Assembly: GCF_038025025.1 (NCBI RefSeq) | Contig: NW_027117343.1 | Span: 62,001 to 126,000, forward strand | From: Phyllosticta citribraziliensis | Taxonomy: Eukaryota | Direction: 5' to 3' | Length of the DNA: 64,000 nucleotides | In this document: positions 23,053 to 34,680 of the stretch, piece by piece | Layout: each line of letters begins with the position of its first letter | How positions within the stretch are numbered: position 1 is the stretch's first letter | The notes under the pieces: generated by a model | What the model was told of the DNA's origin: nothing | Seen by the model: only the letters and a program-made list of their open reading frames with translations | The model's database searches: none | Translations under genes and position numbers: made by a program

Positions 23053-24982
23053 TCATTTCTTTCCCCTTCCCTTGGCATTAAACGTCTTCAATGGATCCGC
23101 CTTTTTGACTGGCCTGCCCTTGCCCATCTTCTTCTTCATCGCCCGAGCCTTACGGATGCGGTTCTCCTTGGCCTCGTCCTTCTTGAATCCCACAAATCCA
23201 ATCTCTTGCGCAGCGTCCTTCTTGCCTCCCGCTGGAAGCAAATACTCGGGCACGTGCCTCAAATGCGGTTGCATCCTTGCCGTTCTGGCTTCGCTGTCGT
23301 GCCTCAGATGCTGCAGGTCCTGCGGGTTCTCTTCAAAGTGGCGTTTCAGCTTCTCAGACTTGAGCAGTTCCTGGCGGAGCTCGCGCGCACGTGCCTCACG
23401 TACGGCGATGCGGGTCACAGCGCGCAGTGCGTCGGCGAGACGATAGCGGAATCCATCGAGCTGCTTCATGTCGAAGTTGTACGGCTCCACCTTGCTACCG
23501 CGCTTCTCTTGAGACTTTTCGATCTTGGCCAGCACTTCCTCGTCGCGCTTGCACGATTCGACGCTTGTGGGCTTGTGCTTGCGATATTGGTCCTTGGGAA
23601 TAACAAACGAGATGGCCATGCCAGTCTTGCCAGCGCGCGCCGTACGTCCAATGCGATGCGTGTAGGATTTTGAGGTGGTTGGGAGGTCGAAGTTGAGAAC
23701 AAGGGAAACGTTTTGAAAGTCGATGCCACGAGCAATTCCGTACTCCTTGTCCCGTTTGCGCGCCTTGCGCTTCTTGCGAGGGGGCTCTGCCGATGCGTCC
23801 TTGTCCTTGATCTCTGAGTCTTCCGGCGCGTCATCCTCCGCTTCCGCTTCTTGCTTGTCCTCTTGGTCTGCTTCTTCCTCCACGTCGTCTTCTCCAGACT
23901 TGCTCTTTTTCTTCTTCTTGTGTTCGCTACCCAGCACCTCATGCTCGTCCGTGGCAATGATGATGTCGTAGACGTTTCTGTTGAACTCCTCCACGACGTG
24001 AATTCTTGAGTTGACAGGAAGCTCAGAGTTGAGAACACAGCTCTTGATGCCGAACTGCTCGAGGAACAGCTTGAGCCTGTAGCAGCGGTCTATGTCTGCA
24101 ACAAAGATGATACTCTTTCCTTTGACCAGTCTCAGCTTGAAAACGGCGTAGATGAGCAGAAACTTCTCGTCCTCGGCACACTTGACAATGTACTGCTTGA
24201 GCTTATCCGTGTCCTCCTCCTCTTCGTCAAGCTCCAAAAGTACCGGATCGCGGCAGAAGAGCCCCTTCAGGTCGTCGACGTCGCTGCTTAAGGTTGCGCT
24301 CATGAGGAAGGCTTGTGCAGTCTTTGGGATGGACTTGGAAATGTTTTGCAAGTCCTCCTCGTAACCGTACGAAAGCACCAAGTCGGCCTCGTCGATGACC
24401 AAGTGCGCAAGCTGGTCCAACGACAGCGCTGAGCTGTTCAAATTGTGGAGAGCTCGGGCAGGTGTCGCTACGACAATGTCTGGCGAGTTGGCGAGCCGAG
24501 CGCGCTGCACCTGGTCATCCTCCTTCAATGTGATGTTTGCCGTCCTCACATCCTGACCGCAAAAGGTTGCAAAGGCTTCGATCGTCTTGCTCACTTGGCC
24601 AGCAAGCTCGCGCGTAGGAACGAGTATCAAGGCCGAGGTGCATCTAGAAAAGCGAGGGTCGGATTTGCGCTTCAGGATGGATTGAAGAATCGGAAGAACG
24701 TAAGCCGCGGTCTTGCCAGAGCCCGTCTTTGAACGTGCTGCTTTGCGTTAGTAAAGAAATCACACTCGGTAGATTGGACGTACCAAGTATGTCCTTGCCC
24801 TCCAAAGCCAGCGGAATCGCCTTGGCCTGGACAGGAGTGGGCTGTGAGAACTTCTGCCGAACGATGCCCTGCAGTAGCCTGGCGTCGAGTCCAAGATTGT
24901 CGAAAGATTGCGAATTTTGTTCGACCGCAACGGCGTCGGCCTCCTCGGGCACATCGTTCTCGTTCAATTTGCGCTTTCCCAT
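23053..24982 (-). CDS. DBP9: ATP-dependent DEAD-box RNA helicase Dbp9 (2 exons)
   Basis: Q motif (FSQPTPVQ), KTGSGKT, PTRELA, DEAD, SAT, ARGIDF and HRIGRTAR. Dbp9-type features [22 protein letters not shown] and HFEENP..L..LRHD. Confidence 0.95.
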
Positions 24983-25313
24983 GGTGACGTTGGTTTGCAG
25001 TGGTGCTAGTGTTGTCGATGATTTGGTTGCGCTTGGCGGCGAGGAATTGCGCCGGCTTGGGGGAAAATTTCTGCCGACCTCCACCGCCTCGATGGGGTCT
25101 ACCTCCGGCACGTCCTCCCCGCACAGACTGGACGAGTCTCCTTCAACACCATTGCACCAACGTCCGTCGCACTCATGTTTTCAATTTCGACACGCGAGGA
25201 TACTACTCTCTGTGCTTGAATGTCACATAGCCCGATGACATCGACGACTACTCTGTTCACTCACTCGAGGAATGCACTATATTGACCAAACACTCGAATT
25301 TCAGGCTGACAGC

Positions 25314-28141
25314 TCAACAATCGTCTCTTCGCCCGTACAGACGCGAGGCGCGCTCTTCCGGCGTGTCGTTCCCAATGCTGTCGAGGTATTCGCGGAACGA
25401 TTTGCTCATCTTCATGACCCTCTGGAAATGCTCGCTCTCAACTATGATTTCGTCTCCCTCTTTGTGGTATTCGCTCTCGACAGCGTCGTGTTCTGCCAAC
25501 GCGATTGCCGTCTGCAAAGCGTTTCGAATTTCCCGACCATTCCAGTCCATGGCACACATCTCCGCTCCCTCTAATATGTAGCGGGTCGCTCCGGGCGCCA
25601 CTCGAATTTTCCCTTGGCATTCCCGGGCCAGTTTGTCAAGAAAGTTTTTCCAGATCACTCTTCGTCTCTCTGGGCTGAGTTTCTTGATCTCAATCATGAT
25701 GTGTACCCGCGATATGAAAGCTTCGTCGATGAACCCCAACCGAGTGGTGGTCAAAAAGAGAAGGCCTTCGAAGTATTCCATCTTCCGGAGAAAAGCTATG
25801 CCAACATCAGCACATGAACAGAAGTCAGGCGCAAGCACGCTCATACCGGATACCATTGCGTTTCGATCCACGTCTTTGTGTTGGCGACGTTCCAGGAAGA
25901 CGTCTGCCTCGTCAATCAAAAGTATCGCCTTGAATCTGTTTGCCAAGGAGAACCATTCCGTCAGCTCCGCTTCAATCGTCTCTTCCTCGTCTTTCAAGTC
26001 GGCCATAGTGAGGCTGATCAGGGGTCGTCCAGTCGCCATGGCCGTGGTTTCTGGCAGCAGTCAACACGACGCGAATACTCAACTTTCTACACGGGGACTT
26101 ACCAACTGTGTATGTTTTTCCGACACCCGGGGGCCCTGTTTGCGGAGGTCAGCCACCAGCCCTTGGAAGGTCTTGTCCAGACGAACCGTGTAGGAGAACC
26201 ACGACACCCTTGCCCTTGTTCTTGATAAAGTCTGCGGACCACGGCACTTTGGTCTTCATTTGACGATTCGATAGGGCCTTGATGAACTTGAGTTCTTCTT
26301 GGGGAATATTCGCCGGTGGGACTTTGTCAGGCTCCCCCAACTCGGAAATCCAGTCGACGTTGATGATTGCTGGTTCGATAACCATTAGCGTTCGACAGCG
26401 CTCGAAGCATGGCGCGAAACTTACTCCAGCTCTTCGTGAGGAGCGCAAACCCCGGCATGATCGGACAAAGAAGAAACAAATGTTCCTCTGACAGGAGATC
26501 GGGCGAATGATCAGGATCCTTGGTATTTAAATCCAACGGATTGACTATCTTCGACGATGCAGCCCTCTTGGGGTTATCCAGACCTTCTGGACCCTGGACC
26601 ACTTCCATGAAGTCGTAATTCCAGTTGTGGTCGGGAAGATCGGTGTCCTGGGAGTACGTCGTACAGGCTATGAGAGGACCATTATACTTTTGTCTGGGTC
26701 AGCCAAAATCTCCCGGGGTTTCTGGAACGCAACTTTACCTCTGGTTTCACTTTCGGCAACATGAGCTTCCCATTGTAGTTGACGTACGAATGGTCCTTCC
26801 ACAGGATGTTGCGAATCAGGCGTCCTCTTTTCTGATAGTCCGATCTCCGTTTGTTGCCGTCTTTGATATCAAAGTAGTCCCTTGGAAACACGGGCAGATC
26901 CAGGACAAGCTTCTCGCCTTCGAAATGATCGACTGTCACCTTCTTCAGGGCTGTCGCCAGCCAGCCAGTCCCCCAGATGGAGTCTTGAAACCAAACGTAG
27001 ATTTCCCAATGGCCCTTGTCGTGCGCCTGTCCTCCAGTTCCGGGGACCAGTGCGGCTCTCTGGATAACGCAGCCGATCCAAACGTTGTCATGAATATGGT
27101 ATGAAAGCGCCCCGGGACGAAGGAGGTACCACAAATCATTGTAAGTGACAGTCGGCTTGGCTTTTTGAAGTCTTTTCTGAGCTGGCAAAATTTCTCGCTG
27201 GATCTTTGGGTCCAAGTAATCCAGCAGTACCTGAATGTGTTCACACTTTTCCAGATTCTTCGGATTGCTGCTTTCGAGAGATTGATCCTCTTCCAGTCTG
27301 GTCTTGAGAGCCTTCAGTTCATCGATGTGGTGCAAGAGAGCACAAAATGGCTCTCTGAAGGTCACTGTATCTCCGAGAAAGTTTTGACTGCAATCGGTGA
27401 GCAACAGCGGCCATCAGCTTTCACGGACGACAATACCTGGGATAGTACTCGACAACTTCCCTGACGGCCTCCAACAGGACAGCTGAGTAGATCACCATGG
27501 TAACTTTGTCAATACTTGCGACCTTCATGTCCGAAAGAGACTGGCTCCCGGCTTCCCACACGCGATTGATTCTTCGGGTTCCATGCACCACCGGCATTTG
27601 TCTCCAGCCTTTGGACTCGACTTGCACGAAATGCTTGATTTCAAAGACGCTCGGAGGGCGTTGACGTATTGGCTGCGCGATTTCGAGAGTCAGAGGAGCG
27701 TCGTTCCTCTTCTCTACAAAGTAGCCGCCGCTCCTGTCGTTGCAATGATACACATATCTGACGTTGCAAGGACTCTCATCGACAGGCTCCACGGTCGATG
27801 CTACGGAAGCAGTCTCAGCCGCTAGGTGCGCATCCAGTGTATCGACCGGAGAGGTCTCAAGCATTGAATGGTCGTGATCGCTTAAGTCGGCCGGAAGATC
27901 AGGCTCGAGATCCGCGTCGCAATCCTCTGGCAAGTGGATTCTTGGAGCGATCTCGAATTCTTGATTGACATCCTTGCTTGAGTTGTCTCTTTTGTTCTCT
28001 CTTTCCGTCACAGCGCCTGTCGAGGTCGGGCTGTTCTTGGCGATTTCGGTCACCTCTGGGACAACATGATCGGCCTGGAGTTTCTTTATGTGTAAGCCTC
28101 GCGTTGTTTTTGTCTACCTTGGTGTTTCTGTCTCTTACCAT
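25314..28141 (-). CDS. Fungal AAA+ ATPase with a long N-terminal extension (DUF7025-type), about 8 exons
   Basis: Walker A LLHG|PPGVGKT (split by an intron), Walker B ILLIDEADVFLERR, and FLRKMEYFEGLLFLTT..IDEAFISR..NGREIRNA. Seven GT-AG introns give one continuous frame from ATG 28141. Confidence 0.9.
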
Positions 28142-29002
28142 TGCTTGCTTACTGATATGCTTCAATTTCTGATCAGCGAACAAATGATCAAGATCCAAGA
28201 CAAGGCAACGGAAATTTCTGGGCAAATCGAAAAAGGTGGTGCACCATTACACGAGGCTCAGACAAGTTCCGCGGGAGAATAAATCGACCAGAAGCCCCGC
28301 ACTGCAAGTAGCCGCGTACGCTCCCTTTTGGACGCGAGGAGGCTGTACAGTGCAAGGCTGGGCGTCTCAGGGCTTGATGCAGGTAAGAATATTCATCGGA
28401 AATCCGCAGGGCACGCAGTTCTTAGCCTCTCCAATCCTCAGATAACCGACCTGGTCTTTAATAAGCAGCCTTGCTTGTTGTTTGCACTTAATGGGCTGAC
28501 TTGTTGGCTTATCTGCAGTACGTGTGGTGAGAATTACGCTTGGTAACACGAATCAAGTGCCCGAGACCTTGCGCAGAAGTAGCAGTGATCGAGGTGAAAT
28601 GTCTACATACTCGTCACATCCGCCCCTCGAAACCGAAGCCTTTTCCCCCATCGCTGGGCTCTGCATAGGACGCAACGAAGTATTCACTCAGCCAAGGGTA
28701 CGAAATCTGCCAACTCCGGCACGCCACGAACCGCAAGATCAAGCCTGACGTGTGTGCAGGCAGAAGCGTTGCACCTCGCTCAGAAGCTTGATTGGTTTGT
28801 GGACCTGCTGTGTCATCAAGCCACCGAGGAGCGACCACGACTACAGCCTTGTTCGCAGCCTTGTCGCTGACCGCTTGACCGTTCACTGGGAAGGCAATCT
28901 CTAGTTACGAGTTGGACCTTCGCAAGTGGTCTACTGCCCTGGCGTCGACTTGAACCTCCGCGTTTCCGGCACGGCACACTCTTACGAGATTAAGACACAG
29001 TC

Positions 29003-31074
29003 ATGGATGCCTCCGACGCTTTGCTGCTGGTCCGCCAGTACAGCGAAACACAAATGTCCAAAAATCCAGACGATACGCTTTAGTGAGTTGAATTCGAAAG
29101 ACGGTATCGCAGAAATCGCACTTATGCTTTGGTAGCAAAAGTCTTGCAGACATGGTGCAGTGGGAAGAACAACAGGAAGCTTGAGGAGAAAGAATTTTCA
29201 GCGAATCAGCAGACAAGTCTGTGCAAATGTACACCAAGAATGACAATTTTGCAGAGAACAGATAGTGGGGTTTTCGTCACTACAGCTCCAAATCTCAGCT
29301 GACCTTGACGTAGCTATGATGTCTTCAACGGGGTCAGCGAGGTAGACGAAATATCCCAAGAACTCGAAAAGTCGTGGAGCAGGGTTCTCAAACACGTCAA
29401 CAAAAACAACAAGAGGAGAAGACACCTGTTTGTCCGCGAAGAATATGAAAAGCCTAGCATGGAGCAGTTGCGCAAGTTGCTCGATGAGTCGCACAAGGAA
29501 ATGGAAAAGGGGAAAGAAACGAAACGAGGCAGAGCGAAGAGCTGGGTCGTCAAAGTCCTCGACACGCTTGGGCAGTATGAGTATCTCTTCGCAATGCTTC
29601 CAAAGGACGACAAGTACTCTTTTTTGTTCGTCGGCGCGTTCACCGCAAGCGTCAAGGTTTTGGTCCCACCACTTTGCCGTTGAAGGTCGACTGATTGCAG
29701 CAGGCTGCTCAAACGCGTGAAAGCACGGCAGAGAAGATCTCCGACTGCCTTGGAAGGGCATCTGATCAAGTGCGCACTTTGTACAAGTCGGCCAGGGAGG
29801 CTCCAGACTCGGAGTACATCAAGAGGCACATAGCATGCTACTACTGCGCTCTGTTCAAGCTCCTCGCCAAACTGTTGGACGAGTGGTACCGCTCGCCCAC
29901 ACAACGGCTGAAAAGCATCCTCGGAGATTCGCTTCAGGCAGAAATGCGGAACTCCATGGACAAATTGAAGTACCACACGGAGCAGGCGGAAAAAGAGGCC
30001 AACAGTGTGACTAATAAGAGGTGGCTCAACGTCGTGGCTTTGAAGTTGGGGGCCCATTGCCAAGCGGGATTGGTCGGGCAGGCCATCGACAGTCCGAGAT
30101 CAAGGGCAGCGCAATCGCCTCCGCCGACGGTCGCGGCGCCTCTTGAGAGGCTGCAAATAGAGTCAAATTGCGGAGATTCGGGGACAGATCAAGCTGCTCC
30201 ACCCGCGCAAGACGACATCAAAAAGGAGTCGCCCGAGCACGATGAGCCAGAGAACCCCGCAGATGCAAGACCCTACTGGACAAGCAAGACAGTCCAAGAA
30301 GCCACGGAGAACCTCGGGCGATTCGTACAGACAGAAAAGATCAACAACCTTTCAGCACAGTCGCGCTACCTGTCGGTCAACCATAACGTCTACCATTCGC
30401 TGGCCTCCTGGGCCTCGAAAGGTGCTTCGGAAGCTCGATGGATAGCGGGACCGCCGCCCGATGCCCAGCCATCGCAAAACACCTTGACAGCGGCGTTCAT
30501 CGTGGCCGCTTTGCGCAACCTCGGCGTGCCGGTCGTGTCGTACTTTTGCGCGTACGACCCGAGCCGTTACAGGTCATTCGATCTCGAGGAGGAGCTTCTC
30601 AAAATGGTGTACGCGTTGATCCACCAGATTGCGGCCGCGCTGCCAGAGCAGCTTGATTTTGAAACCAGTAGAGGCGCAGCACTGGATCTTTCTACAGAAA
30701 GAGTCGTCCAGTTTGGATTGCGTAAAGACAGCCTCGCGCAGGCGATCGAGCTTCTTGAGGAAGTCCTGTCTGTCGGCCCGCCTCTGCTCTACGTCATCAT
30801 TGATGGCCTGCAGGTGCTTGACAAGGCAAGTAACGGCTCGGGTTTGAAAAGCTGTCTGCAGCGCTTCGTTGGGATTCTCGGCGACGCGGTCAAGGCTTCA
30901 TCCGACCATGGAAAGATTGTCAAGGTCGGATGGTTCACTGACCATCAGAGCATGACGCTGCAAGAAGCCTACAGACTCGGCACCCTTCGAAAAGAAGTGT
31001 TTGATTTTGAGGAAGAAGACGAGCTGCTGGGTATGATGAAAGTGCCCGATGTGACGAGGTTTGGCAAGTCGTAG
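29003..31074 (+). pseudogene. STAND/NACHT-like protein (helical N-terminal domain plus degenerate NTPase); apparent in-frame TGA in exon 2
   Basis: Four-exon model beginning MDASDALLLVRQYSE. The helical domain includes YEYLFAMLPKDDKYSFLFVGAFTASVK|AA and IACYYCALFKLL..WY. RWIAGP occupies the Walker A position without GKS/T, followed by VVSYFC and the Walker B-like YVIIDGL. TGA at 29182-29184. It may instead be translated from a downstream ATG. Confidence 0.55.
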
Positions 31075-31146: not shown

Positions 31147-32778
31147 TTACTCGTTTCCGTGAGCGGTTCCGTACAGCACGAGCAACACGCACGTCGACAT
31201 TTGCGCGTAAAAGGCAAATTCCAGCTCGCGCCTCGTCTCCAGGTGTGAGCTGCACGCCTTCGCCGCCTCGTGCAAGGCAAGCAGGTCGTCCAAGACGTAG
31301 CAGTCTCGGCCCGGGGGTAGCGCAGCGTCGGGCCTGTAGACAAACTGGTGGACCAAACGCAGCTTCTCCTCCATCGAAAGGTCGTGGCGGAACGGCGTCT
31401 GTCGGAGAGGACGGTCATCCTGGCAAAAGAGGTGCATGCACTCTACCCGAAAGTCTTCAAAGCGCTTCAGCGTCTCTTGCTGTCTCGAGTCGGCCTCGCT
31501 GGCAAGTTGCGCAAGTCTCTTCAACTCCGGCAGGAAAGCGATGTGCGCGTCGGCTCTTTCTTGCCATATTGTCATGAACCAGTTGAGCGCGATGGTGAAG
31601 CAGCGGTACTGGGCGTCGCTGAAGAGCGTGCGGCTCGGTCCTCCGTTGAGCAGCGAGCGTCTCGAAATGAACACTTCGTCCTCGGTGTTGTGCAGCGCAT
31701 TCCTCTCGAGTTTGAAGGGCCTCGCTTCCCCGTCTGCGTGGCGAGGATTGCGCCCGTTGTCAGCGTCGGGCTTTTCGATTGGCCTGCATTTGTGTGGCTG
31801 CTCGGATTCGAGCTGCAGCGCCTCAGCCTTGCGCTTGGCTGGTGGACTTGGTGTCTCCGAGTGATCGCTCCAAATCCAGCTAGCGGTGTCTGGTATGGAT
31901 CCATTGTCTCCGTTTGTCGCGTGTAGTCGGGCCTGCTCTTGCTCCACCAGAAGCTTCAAATGTTGCCGGAGTTCGACTTGCGATGGGTTTGGACTATTCT
32001 CTGGGTGTTCTTGCGTCGAATTTCCGGGGTGGTTTGATTTTTCCCGAACGGCTTCTTCGTACGGGGGCGGATCGTCATCTACGACGGGATTCCAAGCATT
32101 TGGCATGGCCTCCTTGTCCTCGATTCCGTACACCGCCCACTCATCGACCCCCCATGACCGACCGCTGTATGTCTTCACGTGATCAATCGACGGAGAATCT
32201 ACTGGAACGCTCCGGGCTTTGGTGGCAAAGCGCTCCAACAAGTCTGCGGCAGACTCCAGGTACGGCAAATACACTTCAAAGGCAGTACTACGCGAAAGCG
32301 ATCTCAGGCTGAGAAGTAGGCCGCGCGAATTCGAGGGCAATGGGTTTTTGAACGGTTCAGTAGGCATCATGGCGTAACCGTGTTCTTGGAGGGCAAAGGA
32401 TAAGCGAAGGACTTTGGTAGACGAGCCGAGGCCTGCTCTGCGAAACTCATGGGCTGCTTCCGGGTCGTCTTGGGCCGTCACGACATCGATGGAGAAGAGA
32501 TTGTCTAGGCTTGCAAAGGAACGCGCAGGTAGGATGAGATGGACATCTCTCCTTTTCTTGCTTGCGACCCGCATCTTCAAAGGAAGGGAGAGTCCAATCA
32601 TGCACTTCTCATCTGCATCATCGGCAAACCACATGGACAATTCACCACAGCGACGTCCAGAAAAAGCCAATTGCCCAAGAAACATTGTGTGTCCCGTCTG
32701 CGCGTCGCGCCATTTCACCAAGAACTCGTTTGCGTAATCCAAGTGTGGTGCGGAAGAAAAACATGGACGGCCTTCCAT
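31147..32778 (-). CDS. Hypothetical protein (543 aa) with a PPxY motif
   Basis: Long uninterrupted ATG ORF with a globular-looking N-terminal region, DDPPPYEE, a linker and a helical C-terminus. Confidence 0.8.
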   Translation of the reverse strand: MEGRPCFSSAPHLDYANEFLVKWRDAQTGHTMFLGQLAFSGRRCGELSMWFADDADEKCMIGLSLPLKMRVASKKRRDVHLILPARSFASLDNLFSIDVVTAQDDPEAAHEFRRAGLGSSTKVLRLSFALQEHGYAMMPTEPFKNPLPSNSRGLLLSLRSLSRSTAFEVYLPYLESAADLLERFATKARSVPVDSPSIDHVKTYSGRSWGVDEWAVYGIEDKEAMPNAWNPVVDDDPPPYEEAVREKSNHPGNSTQEHPENSPNPSQVELRQHLKLLVEQEQARLHATNGDNGSIPDTASWIWSDHSETPSPPAKRKAEALQLESEQPHKCRPIEKPDADNGRNPRHADGEARPFKLERNALHNTEDEVFISRRSLLNGGPSRTLFSDAQYRCFTIALNWFMTIWQERADAHIAFLPELKRLAQLASEADSRQQETLKRFEDFRVECMHLFCQDDRPLRQTPFRHDLSMEEKLRLVHQFVYRPDAALPPGRDCYVLDDLLALHEAAKACSSHLETRRELEFAFYAQMSTCVLLVLYGTAHGNE

Positions 32779-34680
32779 CGTATACGCAGGGAGGATTTCA
32801 GGGGCACGGACACAGCAGATCTAGAGTAGCCAATCAACCGTGATATTCAAAATATCTACAGCAGTAAAGTACAAAAACCCCCGCGAAATTGCGCAGGAAT
32901 CCCACCCACCCAGGCTTTGACAAGCTGTTTGCTTGAGAGCAGCACTGGCTCCACTAACCGGGTCGTCGCGACGAAATCCTTGCCTCATGAGCGAGCCCAG
33001 CTCGAGAAGTTGTGCGAGCCAGAGGTTTCCCTCGAACTAGCACGCGTCCGGAGAAGGCCAGCCCAGGAAGAAAGCAAACAGGAGCAAGGCCAGAAACCAG
33101 CCAGACCGGCGATCCGAACGATCCGAGGGCGAGTCAAGCTCGAGAAGATTGTGCGGGCCAGAGAGGTACCTCGAGCCAGCACGCAACCAGAGAAGACCGA
33201 CCCAGGGTTTCGAAAGGAACGACCACCCTCGCAGGCAACCCGACACTCCAGCGCGACGATTGGATCCCGGATAGTTGCTGCGCGATCGAAAAGCAAACAG
33301 AAGAAACGTACGTTTGATGAACAGGCGAATGATGGACACGAAAACGAATGAGCTGTCGGCGCGGTGCGGTGATGTTGTCAGTTGAGCTGACTTTCCGGGG
33401 CTGGGCTGGGTGGAGTTGATCGGTTTCGGGAAATATGTTAGTCCGAGAAACGCGCGCTTACCAGATCACGTGAATATTCCTGGTTCGGGACCGGAGCCAC
33501 AACCATCAAACATCTTCCCCGCGCTTTATAACGGCGATCCTACTTTTACAACAGTGTTTCTATTCTCGAGGTATCATCAGATTTTGATTGAGACATCTGC
33601 ATTTGAAACTCACCATCAGATTTCCGGTCAAGCCTTTCTACCTCGTTTCGGCAAGCTTCCAGAAGCTTTGGAACCCAGCGCGAACGCGACGTGCAGCCGG
33701 AATCCATTGTCAGTCGGGTCGCATTGAAGGATGTCACGACCCTGAGACCGCCATTTTGCATGCGCGTTTGCAATTGTCCTCTCCCAAATGCCGGCCCCGC
33801 TCGGTTTCGCCCCGAGGAATGCTGACATCTTGCAGCGCGGGAAGATGTAGCGACCCAACTGCAGACGACCCGTTGGCAACAACACTGGAGTGCCGTACCC
33901 CAGTCTGCGAAGCCCACGCAACGCAAACCGGTCGATGGAAAGAGCCTCCGGATGCGAAAGCCACTGGCGTAGTCCAAAGTCTAGCCGTCAAGAGACAAGA
34001 AAAAGACAAAAGAAGGAAGATTAAGTAAATGAGAAAGAGACTGCTCGGCAACGCATTTATCGGGCGCGTTCCTCCAGACCGGCAGCCTGCAGTGGCTTGG
34101 AGGGGCCGCACCGCTTCTGGCTCAACAACCGCACAATCACGAGAGACGAACCACACAGAAACCATTGGCTTTTCTCCATCACTGGGCATCAAAGTCCCCA
34201 AAATATCTGCACACGTTCACGAAATGGTCCCTGATTCTGCCTCAAAAGACTTGAAGGATTGAGAACACCTAAGAAGCGCAGGGCCACAGGCGCTGCACCA
34301 TCTGTACCAGCCCTCTGATTCTGATTGTGGTCGCATTCATATGTCCCTGCTCTGCGGCAACATCTCAGCTTTCGCCCATTCAATCGCCTCGTCCTCGGGC
34401 ACTTGCAGCTATAGCACCAGGACCAGATCAATCGCCGAAATTCGATTTCAGCTCTTCACAGCACTCTGGACACCTTGACCATACGCTTGGTCGAAGTTTC
34501 CTCGCAAGTCTGCATGTCGGGTACTCTGCACGTCAAGCTTTCAATCATGTTCTGGTCTTTGCTTGCGCTAAGACTCGGAGCTGGCACAAACTCCCATATA
34601 TTCAAAATGAATTAACAAGTACAGAAAACTCCCATTTCCATTCCCGCAGATCCCGAAAGATACCCAGTCCCTCCCTAAGA

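What the first reader, a model, noticed from the sequence alone, without database searches (positions are those of the whole stretch)
25314..31074. Head-to-head pair: intact AAA+ ATPase and NACHT-like protein with no P-loop and no sensor repeats
Seen: divergent genes about 860 bp apart. One is an intact 8-exon AAA+ ATPase (GPPGVGKT, DEAD). The other has a STAND-type helical N-terminal domain and a NACHT-like core (WIAGP, SYFC, VIIDGL), but Walker A GKS/T is replaced and there are no WD/ANK/TPR repeats. Known: fungal NLR-like STAND proteins act in non-self recognition, often as two-gene clusters. Inference: a two-component module in which an active AAA+ remodeller partners an NTPase-dead NLR-like scaffold. 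I know of no characterised system of this form, and it is my best candidate for a novel system in this window.
Basis: partly seen in the sequence, partly recalled or inferred. Interest (0 to 1): 0.75.

Follow-up and report, generated by a model that had tools for sequence, protein, structure and literature searches.

The report
Conserved AAA+ and dead-NLR gene pair
A fungal AAA+ ATPase gene and a neighbouring gene for an NLR-like protein that has lost its nucleotide-binding site are both transcribed and lie side by side in two distantly related fungi, so they probably work together, though how is unknown.

Summary
The window matches Phyllosticta citribraziliensis. Gene A (minus strand, 25314-28141) is an 8-exon, 817-aa DUF7025-AAA-AAA_lid_13 ATPase with intact GPPGVGKT and DEAD motifs. 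Gene B (plus strand, 29003-31074, 4 exons) has a DUF7708 helical N-domain, a disordered linker and a confidently modelled STAND/AAA+-type nucleotide-binding fold. That fold has no Walker A lysine. No winged-helix module or repeats follow it. The start codons are 861 bp apart. Contigs of run X1 lack all 10 introns, so both genes are transcribed.

(1) Gene B is not a lone degenerate NLR. It belongs to a large Pezizomycotina family (1193 representatives at E<=1e-3), and 0 of 153 aligned rows have GxxxxGK[ST]. (2) The pairing recurs. In Arachnomyces sp. PD_36, a different class, the closest named homologues of A and B outside Phyllosticta carry consecutive locus tags and accessions. (3) In this genome gene B has an in-frame TGA at 29182-29184 where two orthologues have Arg.

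A functional two-gene module is plausible (about 0.45). Physical partnership is untested. How generally the two families are linked could not be measured, because no fungal genome context was available.

The parts
25314..25795 (-). Gene A exon 8 (coding part). Holds the end of the AAA domain, the AAA_lid_13 domain and the stop at 25314-25316.
   Evidence: AAA_lid_13 E 8.1e-36. X1 record 1 piece 25200-25795.
25847..26050 (-). Gene A exon 7. Holds Walker B (LLIDEADVF) and the stretch that aligns to Msp1 pore loop 1, here KDEEET.
   Evidence: joints 25795/25847 and 26050/26103. alignment to Msp1 5w0t_A.
26103..26135 (-). Gene A exon 6, a 33-nt microexon that encodes Walker A (GPPGVGKTYTV).
   Evidence: joints 26050/26103 and 26134/26186 (cut +1) in X1 and X3. 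sequence.
26186..26369 (-). Gene A exon 5.
   Evidence: X1 record 1.
26425..26686 (-). Gene A exon 4.
   Evidence: X1 record 1.
26739..27387 (-). Gene A exon 3, holding the DUF7025 domain.
   Evidence: DUF7025 E 3.6e-12, 46.9 bits (cut-off 27)..
27437..28074 (-). Gene A exon 2, the variable N-terminal region.
   Evidence: P0011.
28139..28205 (-). Gene A exon 1. Only the ATG (28139-28141) is coding; the 5' UTR reaches at least about 28205.
   Evidence: joint 28073/28138 (cut +1), with 67 letters on the far side in X1. P0011 begins MADHVV.
28206..28750 (.). Shared divergent promoter region between the two transcripts. The boundaries are approximate.
   Evidence: depth table: X1 has no cover at 28215-28415, and cover rises from 28416-28817.
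29003..29082 (+). Gene B exon 1 (coding part), holding the ancestral start MDASDALLLVRQYSE...
   Evidence: orthologues P0002-P0004, P0006 begin alike. joint 29082/29136.
29136..29264 (+). Gene B exon 2. It carries the in-frame TGA at 29182-29184, and the ATG at 29227 is the start of the NCBI model.
   Evidence: translation. alignment (Arg in P0002 and P0003). X1 and X2 cover it with 0 differences.
29314..29656 (+). Gene B exon 3, the first part of the DUF7708 region.
   Evidence: DUF7708 residues 90-228 of P0001. joints.
29704..30270 (+). Gene B exon 4, first part: the rest of the DUF7708 helical region and a disordered linker.
   Evidence: pLDDT under 50 for residues 292-373 of P0002.
30271..31074 (+). 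Gene B exon 4, second part. It holds the P-loop-less NACHT/STAND-like nucleotide-binding fold, with WIAGPPPDAQPSQNTL and VIIDGLQ, then the acidic tail FDFEEEDELL and the stop at 31072-31074.
   Evidence: pLDDT 92.6, pTM 0.91. fold matches. NPHP3_N E 5.8e-4, below the cut-off..

Best explanation
The locus is a real, transcribed, divergently arranged two-gene unit that is inherited together.

Gene A is a classical-clade AAA+ ATPase of the fungal DUF7025 / AAA_lid_13 family. Walker A, Walker B and an Arg in the second-region-of-homology position are kept, so it probably hydrolyses ATP. The two aromatic residues of Msp1 pore loop 1 align to Glu-Glu, so it is unlikely to thread substrates the way Msp1 does.

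Gene B belongs to a large Pezizomycotina family derived from NACHT-type NLRs. It keeps an N-terminal helical domain (DUF7708) that bona fide NACHT proteins also carry, and it keeps only the alpha/beta core of the nucleotide-binding domain. The Walker A Lys-Ser/Thr is gone family-wide, and the acidic pair after the Walker B Asp is replaced (DGLQ). The winged-helix and sensor repeat modules are absent. Gene B therefore cannot act as a nucleotide-driven switch by itself.

Inference: the dead nucleotide-binding domain serves as a docking or oligomerisation surface, DUF7708 is the output domain, and the neighbouring AAA+ supplies in trans the ATP-dependent step that controls B's state (assembly, disassembly or release). 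This would resemble the way a catalytically dead AAA+-like partner pairs with an active AAA+ in Torsin-LAP1.

Shown here: gene structures, transcription, domain content, the fold, family-wide loss of motifs, and adjacency in two classes.
Inferred: the functional coupling, its direction and its biological role.

In this genome B carries a premature TGA. At best an N-terminally shortened protein is made, from ATG 29227.
For: - Adjacency outside the genus. P0006 is the closest named homologue of B outside Phyllosticta, with 40% identity over 98% of the query. P0014 is the closest named homologue of A outside Phyllosticta, with 53% identity over the DUF7025 exon. They are FQN54_004080 and FQN54_004079 of Arachnomyces sp. 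PD_36, with accessions KAK2758236.1 and KAK2758235.1, and the same longest-contig figure (722083 nt) is given for both.
- Adjacency within the genus. In P. citrichinensis the accessions are consecutive too: KAK8158522.1 for B and KAK8158523.1 for A.
- A probable third case. The unnamed Logan proteins P0013 (A-like, 777 aa) and P0019 (B-like, 440 aa) both list 5536 nt as their longest contig. Each is the best or second-best hit outside Phyllosticta.
- Parallel similarity ranks. For A, Phyllosticta versus P0013, A. udagawae, Neofusicoccum and Diplodia gives 55.6, 50, 45.6 and 44.9% (the P0014 hit there covers only 300 residues). For B, Phyllosticta versus P0019, P0006, Aspergillus and Diplodia gives 41.3, 38.8, 30-31 and 31.5%.
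- Transcription. X1 contigs lack all 7 plus 3 introns, and the start codons are 861 bp apart.
- Fold of B. The C-domain model has pLDDT 92.6. VIA-align gives Z 12.0 to Avs3 and Z 9.5-11.9 to ORC/Cdc6, plant NLRs, CED-4 and Apaf-1.
- Family traits of B. There are 1193 representatives at E<=1e-3. 75 of 78 hit DUF7708 and 30 of 78 hit NPHP3_N. 0 of 153 aligned rows have GxxxxGK[ST]. The Walker-B Asp is kept in 138 of 153 rows, and the +3 position is Q in 98, E in 22 and D in 4.
- ATPase core of A. The Pfam hits are above their cut-offs. The best solved relatives are Msp1 (E 1.2e-9), ATAD1-type 'outer mitochondrial transmembrane helix translocase' chains, FtsH and p97.
Against: - Linkage was seen in only two named lineages plus one inferred contig.
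- For the next relatives of A (A. udagawae, Neofusicoccum ribis and parvum, Diplodia seriata and intermedia) no B neighbour could be checked. None of these species appeared among the 9 B hits.
- For Sclerotinia borealis SBOR_8042 and Botrytis byssoidea EAE97_002120 (B family) the neighbours are unknown.
- Both families are large, so most members may be unpaired.
- There is no evidence of physical contact.
- The fold match does not separate NACHT from ORC/Cdc6 or classical AAA+ (rows within 1 Z unit are tied).
- For the window's own protein the Pfam hits to DUF7708 (19.5 bits) and NPHP3_N (20.7 bits) fall below the curated cut-offs of 25 and 24.8.
- The premature TGA in this genome suggests relaxed constraint on B here.
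- Conserved adjacency could reflect a shared bidirectional promoter or joint transfer rather than joint function.
Confidence: 0.45

Rival explanations
1. The genes are neighbours without being partners. Adjacency persists through shared ancestry of a bidirectional promoter or through joint transfer, but the proteins act in separate pathways. B works on its own or with canonical DUF7708-NACHT NLRs, for example as a decoy or dominant-negative subunit that joins their nucleotide-binding-domain oligomers. A is an unrelated remodeller.
For: - ESM Atlas neighbours of B include clusters that combine DUF7708 with NPHP3_N and NACHT (ranks 17 and 19; scores 0.82 and 0.81, which the tool rates as leads only). 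Full NLRs with the same N-domain therefore exist as possible partners.
- The B family is large (1193 representatives). Its 150 best representatives are 118-753 aa and match along the profile, so it is a self-standing architecture.
- The closest further relatives of A come from species that did not appear among the B hits.
Against: - The closest named homologues of both genes outside Phyllosticta are direct neighbours in a fungus of another class.
- The two genes show the same similarity ranking across taxa.
- One search scored only 8000 word-sharing candidates, so absence from it is weak evidence.
Confidence: 0.35
2. In this genome the module is decaying. Gene B is a young pseudogene: a nonsense codon 60 codons into the 640-codon frame. 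The pair has no current joint function in P. citribraziliensis, whatever it does elsewhere.
For: - There is an in-frame TGA at 29182-29184 where P0002 and P0003 have Arg and P0004 has Asn.
- The TGA is covered without differences by contigs of X1 and X2, two studies.
- The lost 57 N-terminal residues are conserved in Phyllosticta, Arachnomyces and Sclerotinia homologues.
Against: - This is the only disruption. The remaining 583 codons are open and about 90% identical to P. citrichinensis.
- The mRNA is present and correctly spliced.
- An in-frame ATG lies 43 nt downstream of the stop, so re-initiation after a 59-codon upstream frame is possible (inference).
Confidence: 0.15
3. The pair is an accessory cassette that moved between fungal lineages as a unit. 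On this reading its patchy distribution reflects transfer, not a conserved housekeeping role.
For: For both genes, Phyllosticta sequences are closer to Arachnomyces and to unnamed relatives than to fellow Botryosphaeriales such as Diplodia and Neofusicoccum. For A the figures are about 55% against 45-46%, and for B 39-41% against 31.5%.
Against: - The same pattern arises from old paralogy with differential loss.
- No mobile-element genes were seen nearby. The flanks hold ordinary genes: a DEAD-box helicase, mitochondrial ribosomal protein L31, a mitochondrial carrier and NUDE.
- GC content is unremarkable, 0.51-0.53 against 0.51-0.63 across the window.
Confidence: 0.05

Closest known systems
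Fungal NACHT-type NLRs with helical N-terminal domains (Pfam DUF7708 / Goodbye / NACHT_N + NPHP3_N / NACHT + ANK, WD40 or TPR repeats)
   Same: The N-terminal domain family is the same: DUF7708 in 75 of 78 relatives, and it also occurs on NACHT-bearing clusters. The core shows NPHP3_N-type sequence similarity in 30 of 78 and has a STAND/AAA+ alpha/beta fold. A DG-hydrophobic Walker-B-like strand is present.
   Different: There is no Walker A GK[ST] in 0 of 153 rows. The acidic residues after the Walker B Asp are mostly replaced. No helical or winged-helix arm follows and there are no repeats. The protein ends about 90 residues after the Walker-B-like strand.
Fungal two-gene NLR clusters such as NWD2/HET-S (PMC4344463 and PMC3321046; only the search listings and abstracts were seen)
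   Same: An NLR-related gene and a functional partner gene sit immediately adjacent, and the arrangement is conserved between fungi.
   Different: In those clusters a complete NLR signals to a pore-forming effector through a shared amyloid motif. Here the NLR-like gene is NTPase-dead and sensor-less, the neighbour is an AAA+ ATPase, and no amyloid motif was looked for or seen.
Torsin with LAP1/LULL1 (recalled from the literature; not searched here)
   Same: An active AAA+ ATPase is paired with a partner that has an AAA+-like fold but cannot bind nucleotide. This is the logic proposed for A and B.
   Different: There is no sequence relation. Torsin lacks its own arginine finger, whereas gene A keeps an Arg at the aligned position. 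Binding of A to B is not shown.
Plant paired NLRs in head-to-head orientation, such as RRS1/RPS4 and RGA5/RGA4 (recalled; not searched here)
   Same: The genes are divergently transcribed neighbours, and one member does not need a working P-loop.
   Different: In plants both members are full NLRs with LRRs. Here the partner is a classical-clade AAA+ and the NLR-like member has no sensor.
Msp1/ATAD1, the closest solved relative of gene A's ATPase core
   Same: Walker A, Walker B and the region up to the Arg finger align at E 1.2e-9 over residues 575-691.
   Different: Gene A has a long N-terminal region with DUF7025 and a fungal-specific lid (AAA_lid_13). Msp1's W-Y aligns to E-E; that these two residues are pore loop 1 is recalled, not tested here.

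Membership tests
NACHT / STAND NLR | Walker A GxxxxGK[ST] after strand 1 | tested here: not met
   The window has GPPPDAQPSQNT. 0 of 153 family rows covering the site have GxxxxGK[ST], and 3 of 153 have any K[ST] dipeptide there.
NACHT / STAND NLR | Walker B hhhhD[GAS]hDE with catalytic acidic residues (consensus recalled) | tested here: not met
   The window has VIIDGLQVL. The Asp is kept in 138 of 153 rows and the Gly in 122 of 153. The +3 position is Q in 98, E in 22 and D in 4 of 153, and the next position is hydrophobic.
NACHT / STAND NLR | ASCE-type alpha/beta nucleotide-binding fold | tested here: met
   The model has pLDDT 92.6. VIA-align gives Avs3 Z 12.0 (202 aligned, rmsd 4.3), NRC2 10.5, CED-4 10.0 and Apaf-1 9.5, but ORC/Cdc6 (11.9) and NSF-D2 (11.4) are tied with these. 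Foldseek best E is 1.8e-4, to TnsC and ORC.
NACHT / STAND NLR | Sequence match to the NACHT or NPHP3_N profile above Pfam's cut-off | tested here: inconclusive
   The window protein scores 20.5-20.7 bits on NPHP3_N against a cut-off of 24.8. 30 of 78 relatives match at E<=0.01, best 7.8e-10. No PF05729 NACHT hit was listed.
NACHT / STAND NLR | Helical / winged-helix arm after the nucleotide-binding domain, and C-terminal sensor repeats | tested here: not met
   The protein ends at 31074, and the RNA contig runs through without a further joint. Pfam finds no repeat family. The 150 best relatives are at most 753 aa.
DUF7708 (PF24809) proteins | Profile match | tested here: met
   The window protein is below the cut-off (19.5 bits against 25). 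Relatives P0006 (30.8) and P0008 (27.8) pass, and 75 of 78 relatives match, best E 3.4e-31.
DUF7025-AAA-AAA_lid_13 fungal AAA+ ATPases | The three Pfam domains in order, above the cut-offs | tested here: met
   DUF7025 scores 46.9 bits (cut-off 27), AAA 25 (21.2) and AAA_lid_13 123 (27) on the exon pieces. P0011 carries PF22942, PF00004 and PF23232.
Classical-clade AAA+ protein translocases (Msp1 / p97 type) | Aromatic-hydrophobic pore loop 1 between Walker A and Walker B | tested here: not met
   In the phmmer alignment, Msp1 'DKWYGES' pairs with 'KDEEETI' of gene A. Relatives have GTKEE or GTNEE there. That WY is Msp1's pore loop is recalled.
Classical-clade AAA+ protein translocases (Msp1 / p97 type) | Walker A, Walker B and an Arg finger | tested here: met
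   GPPGVGKT, LLIDEADVF and DEAFISR align to Msp1 GPPGCGKT, IFIDEIDSF and DDAFLRR, and they are invariant in 16 relatives. ATPase activity itself was not tested.

The most novel reading that the evidence does not exclude
This is a new kind of fungal two-component NLR-like system. A family-wide NTPase-dead, sensor-less NACHT derivative (DUF7708 plus pseudo-nucleotide-binding domain) is switched in trans by a dedicated neighbouring AAA+ ATPase (DUF7025 type, with an acidic instead of an aromatic pore loop). The nucleotide-dependent step of an NLR would then be outsourced to a separate gene, and the pair would be inherited, and perhaps transferred, as a cassette across classes of Pezizomycotina.
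Probability: 0.2. Interest if true: 0.8.

Novelty: new variant of a known kind. Interest (0 to 1): 0.5.

Why it matters
Fungal NLR-like proteins are numerous and mostly of unknown function. All known models assume that the NLR's own nucleotide-binding domain is the switch.

A large family that keeps the NLR N-domain and the nucleotide-binding fold, but has lost nucleotide-binding motifs throughout, does not fit that model. At least 1193 clusters at 50% identity belong to it.

A conserved neighbour that is an intact ATPase offers a concrete and testable idea of where the energy-dependent step went. If the idea is wrong, the result still matters: it defines the DUF7708 / dead-NACHT family and the DUF7025 AAA+ subfamily as a co-inherited pair. 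No paper in the searched library mentions either DUF.

Tried and rejected
- Whole genome of the window: not held, so paralogue-by-paralogue linkage inside this genome could not be counted.
- Metagenome scan with the B-family alignment: 212 stretches matched a pattern, and 1 encoded a relative. That locus, L001, is a 1518-nt contig, too short to show neighbours.
- Earlier findings of this scan: nothing by place, by words or by two sequences.
- Complex prediction with A residues 200-817 and the B C-domain: no verdict. The score was 0.03 against a mark of 0.34, the alignments were not used, and the controls were not run. This is evidence neither for nor against binding.
- The look-up of sequencing runs: no listed holder is on record as RNA. 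The spliced contigs came from laying runs X1-X3.
- Full-length model of B (P0002, 9-row alignment): poor, with mean pLDDT 53.6. It was not used for fold search, so the fold of DUF7708 remains untested.
- Profile search of the B family against sequences of solved structures: nothing below E 0.5.
- Literature:
  - 0 papers hold DUF7708, DUF7025, AAA_lid_13, PF24809 or PF22942.
  - The searches listed general fungal-NLR papers. Only passages of PMC12258605 and PMC9815663 were read. The passages shown did not mention an AAA+/NLR-like pair or a P-loop-less family. Their supplements were not opened.
- The third cluster look-up was meant to find B-family members in the species that hold A's next relatives. 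It returned other taxa (Aspergillus spectabilis, Hymenoscyphus, Apiospora, Colletotrichum, Delphinella), which shows breadth but not adjacency.
- An idea considered and dropped: that the first intron of B is a single 231-nt intron. Orthologues and RNA contigs show a coding exon inside it.

Full report
WHAT IS THERE

The window matches Phyllosticta citribraziliensis. The largest exon of the plus-strand gene is 100% identical to NCBI protein BC567DRAFT_180307 (P0001). The minus-strand gene is 100% identical to J3D65DRAFT_623379 (P0011). No whole genome is held for the window.

GENE A (minus strand, 25314-28141)

- Six-frame reading and the minus-strand sequence gave a multi-exon AAA+ gene.
- Contigs of coded runs X1 and X3 join across seven introns, each with GT..AG ends on the minus strand: 25795/25847, 26050/26103, 26134/26186, 26369/26425, 26686/26739, 27387/27437 and 28073/28138.
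The first exon contributes only the ATG (28139-28141). The sixth is a 33-nt microexon (26103-26135) that encodes the Walker A loop.
- The spliced product is the 817-aa P0011.
- Pfam hits on the exon pieces all exceed the curated cut-offs: DUF7025 (46.9 bits, cut-off 27), AAA (25 bits, cut-off 21.2) and AAA_lid_13 (123 bits, cut-off 27).
- Among solved structures, the ATPase core is nearest to Msp1 (E 1.2e-9). ATAD1-type 'outer mitochondrial transmembrane helix translocase' chains, FtsH and p97 follow, 52 distinct sequences at E<=1e-5.
- In the residue-level alignment, Walker A, Walker B and the DEAFISR stretch pair with Msp1's GPPGCGKT, IFIDEIDSF and DDAFLRR. Msp1's DKWYGES pairs with KDEEETI.
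- From memory, that W-Y is Msp1's substrate-gripping pore loop. If so, gene A is a probable ATPase that does not grip substrates the way Msp1 does.
- Sixteen relatives all have an acidic stretch there.

GENE B (plus strand, 29003-31074)

- RNA-type contigs of X1 join 29082/29136, 29264/29314 and 29656/29704. The gene therefore has four exons, not the three I first drew.
- The last exon (29704-31074) runs to a TAG at 31072-31074. The X1 contig continues past it without a further joint, so the protein really ends there.
- If read through, the frame is 640 codons, the length of the P. citrichinensis orthologue P0002.
- Exon 2 carries an in-frame TGA at 29182-29184. At that position P0002 and P0003 have Arg and P0004 has Asn.
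- Contigs of X1 and X2, two studies of organism A, cover the site with no differences. The stop is therefore real in this species.
- NCBI's model starts at the next ATG (29227) and gives 583 aa. The 57 lost residues are conserved in Phyllosticta, Arachnomyces and Sclerotinia homologues.

WHAT GENE B IS

- On the window's own protein, Pfam gives only sub-threshold hits: DUF7708 at 19.5 bits (cut-off 25) and NPHP3_N at 20.7 bits (cut-off 24.8).
- The word-indexed search found just 9 relatives among 8000 scored candidates.
- A profile search of every representative protein found 1193 at E<=1e-3, 679 at E<=1e-10 and 181 at E<=1e-30. The best 150 are 118-753 aa long.
- Of 78 full-length members scanned, 75 match DUF7708 (best E 3.4e-31), 30 match NPHP3_N (best 7.8e-10), 5 match AAA_16 and 1 matches Goodbye.
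- Named members come from Phyllosticta, Arachnomyces, Aspergillus, Diplodia, Botrytis, Sclerotinia, Monosporascus, Hymenoscyphus, Apiospora, Colletotrichum and Delphinella. The family is therefore spread across Pezizomycotina.
- ESM Atlas neighbours are DUF7708 / NPHP3_N clusters of Ascomycota (scores 0.96-0.99). At lower scores (0.81-0.86, leads only) there are clusters that combine DUF7708 with NPHP3_N and NACHT.
- With a 122-row alignment, the C-terminal 267 residues (window 30271-31071) fold with mean pLDDT 92.6 and pTM 0.91 into a five-stranded alpha/beta domain.
- Foldseek gives weak matches (best E 1.8e-4, TM 0.3-0.44) to TnsC, ORC/Cdc6, RecA/RAD51 and KaiC.
- VIA-align against 48161 chains gives Avs3 at Z 12.0. 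Then come Cdc6/ORC (11.9-11.6), NSF-D2 (11.4), DnaA, plant NLRs NRC2 and ZAR1 (10.5, 10.4), a TPR-STAND (10.1), CED-4 (10.0), Avs4 (9.9), MalT (9.9) and Apaf-1 (9.5).
- These rows are close to tied. The fold is a STAND/AAA+ nucleotide-binding domain, and structure alone does not single out NACHT. The NACHT assignment rests on the NPHP3_N sequence similarity and on the shared N-domain.
- In a profile alignment of 158 family proteins, 153 rows cover the P-loop site. None has GxxxxGK[ST], and 3 have any K[ST] dipeptide there.
- The Walker-B-like Asp is kept in 138 of 153 rows and the following Gly in 122. The position where NACHT has an acidic residue (consensus recalled) is Q in 98, E in 22 and D in 4.
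- The replacement motif W-I-x-G-P-x5-P-S-Q-N-T-L is itself conserved. This is a constrained pseudo-active site, not random decay.
It describes a whole family, not a local oddity.

IS THE PAIRING MORE THAN CHANCE?

- The DUF7025 exon of gene A found four proteins at E<=1e-5 among 806 candidates: the protein itself, P. citricarpa, the unnamed Logan protein P0013, and FQN54_004079 of Arachnomyces sp. PD_36 (P0014).
- The closest named homologue of gene B outside Phyllosticta is FQN54_004080 of the same fungus (P0006).
- The accessions of these two are consecutive (KAK2758235.1, KAK2758236.1), and both proteins list 722083 nt as their longest contig.
- P. citrichinensis shows the same adjacency (KAK8158522.1 and KAK8158523.1).
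- P0013 and the B-family protein P0019 both list 5536 nt as their longest contig. This suggests, but does not prove, a third linked pair.
- Similarity ranks run in parallel.
  - For A, Phyllosticta is 55.6% identical to P0013, 50% to A. udagawae, 45.6% to Neofusicoccum and 44.9% to Diplodia. The P0014 hit in that call covers only 300 residues; over the DUF7025 exon it is 53%.
  - For B, Phyllosticta is 41.3% identical to P0019, 38.8% to P0006, 30-31% to Aspergillus and 31.5% to Diplodia.
- Both genes of Phyllosticta (order Botryosphaeriales) are thus closer to a Eurotiomycete pair than to fellow Botryosphaeriales. This fits co-inheritance of a particular paralogue pair or joint transfer.
- Against this, I could not see the neighbours of any other family member. 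The next relatives of A are from A. udagawae, Neofusicoccum and Diplodia, and the other B relatives are from Sclerotinia, Botrytis, Aspergillus and D. corticola. The only metagenome locus is too short. The generality of the link is unmeasured.

EXPRESSION

- X1 contigs carry the fully spliced forms of both genes. X3, from a related species, carries spliced gene A and the first intron joint of gene B.
- The runs are not on record as RNA, so intron-less contigs are my evidence that they hold transcripts.
- X1 cover is absent at 28215-28415 and rises from about 28416-28817. The two transcripts therefore leave a shared region of a few hundred bases in opposite directions.

MECHANISM

- Shown: an intact AAA+ core; a pseudo-nucleotide-binding domain with constrained replacement motifs; an NLR-type N-domain; co-inheritance in two classes; and transcription of both genes.
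- Inferred: B cannot switch by nucleotide exchange, so the ATP-dependent control step is provided in trans by A. B's dead domain is the docking or oligomerisation surface and DUF7708 is the output.
- I put the functional coupling at about 0.45 and the specific direction (A acts on B) lower.
- The main rival, at about 0.35, is that the genes are neighbours without being partners, with B acting on canonical DUF7708-NACHT NLRs.
- A further reading is that B is a young pseudogene in this genome (about 0.15). Joint horizontal transfer of the pair is possible too (about 0.05).
- A complex prediction gave no verdict and counts for nothing either way.

NOVELTY

- No paper in the searched library mentions either DUF.
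- In the fungal NLR papers I looked at, I read passages only. Those passages do not describe a P-loop-less family or an AAA+ partner. Their supplements were not opened and may list such proteins among non-canonical NLRs.
- I rate the finding a new variant of a known kind: NLR-related two-gene clusters, and an active AAA+ paired with a dead AAA+-like partner.

Noticed in passing
window 29182-29184: There is an in-frame TGA in exon 2 of gene B where orthologues have Arg (P0002, P0003) or Asn (P0004). Contigs of two runs of the same organism (X1, X2) carry it. The NCBI model restarts at ATG 29227 and loses 57 conserved N-terminal residues.
   Followed up: partly
window 26103-26135 (minus strand): The Walker A loop of gene A lies on a 33-nt microexon. 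In several Phyllosticta annotations the gene is split into a DUF7025 protein and a 'P-loop NTPase' protein with consecutive accessions: P0169/P0170, P0171/P0178, P0175/P0179 and P0180/P0177. Missing the microexon is my suggested cause and was not checked. Real frameshifts are not excluded.
   Followed up: partly
window 27437-28177 (plus strand): Contigs of run X2 show joints with GT..AG ends on the plus strand (27720/27771 and 28091/28177) inside the 5' half of gene A. This would be a spliced transcript antisense to gene A that runs toward gene B. Each joint rests on one contig, at depths of about 24-27.
   Followed up: no
window 25847-26050 (minus strand); P0011 residues about 605-615: The residues aligned to Msp1's W-Y are Glu-Glu, and all 16 aligned relatives have an acidic stretch there. 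That is unusual for a classical-clade AAA+.
   Followed up: partly
window 31150-32820 (minus strand): A 557-aa open frame lies convergent with gene B and has no Pfam hit. One 3913-nt X1 contig runs on about 1620 nt past window 31200, far enough to span this frame as well as gene B, so the region appears to be transcribed. Whether it belongs to the pair is unknown.
   Followed up: no
window 23053-25180 (minus strand): A DEAD-box helicase gene (DEAD E 1.2e-32, Helicase_C E 1.9e-19) lies directly downstream of gene A. The wider neighbourhood holds ordinary genes: NUDE, a mitochondrial carrier, mitochondrial ribosomal protein L31, a PL4 lyase, a carboxylesterase and a lipase. The pair is not in an obvious accessory island.
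   Followed up: partly
P0030 (Hymenoscyphus albidus), pseudo-P-loop: One family member has PTKSTL instead of PSQNTL, which places a Lys-Ser where Walker A would have it, though without the glycine-rich loop. This could be a partial reversion or an ancestral state.
   Followed up: no
L001 715-1105: A 1518-nt soil-type metagenome contig encodes a 31%-identical relative of the gene B nucleotide-binding domain (E 3e-13). It is too short to show neighbours.
   Followed up: no
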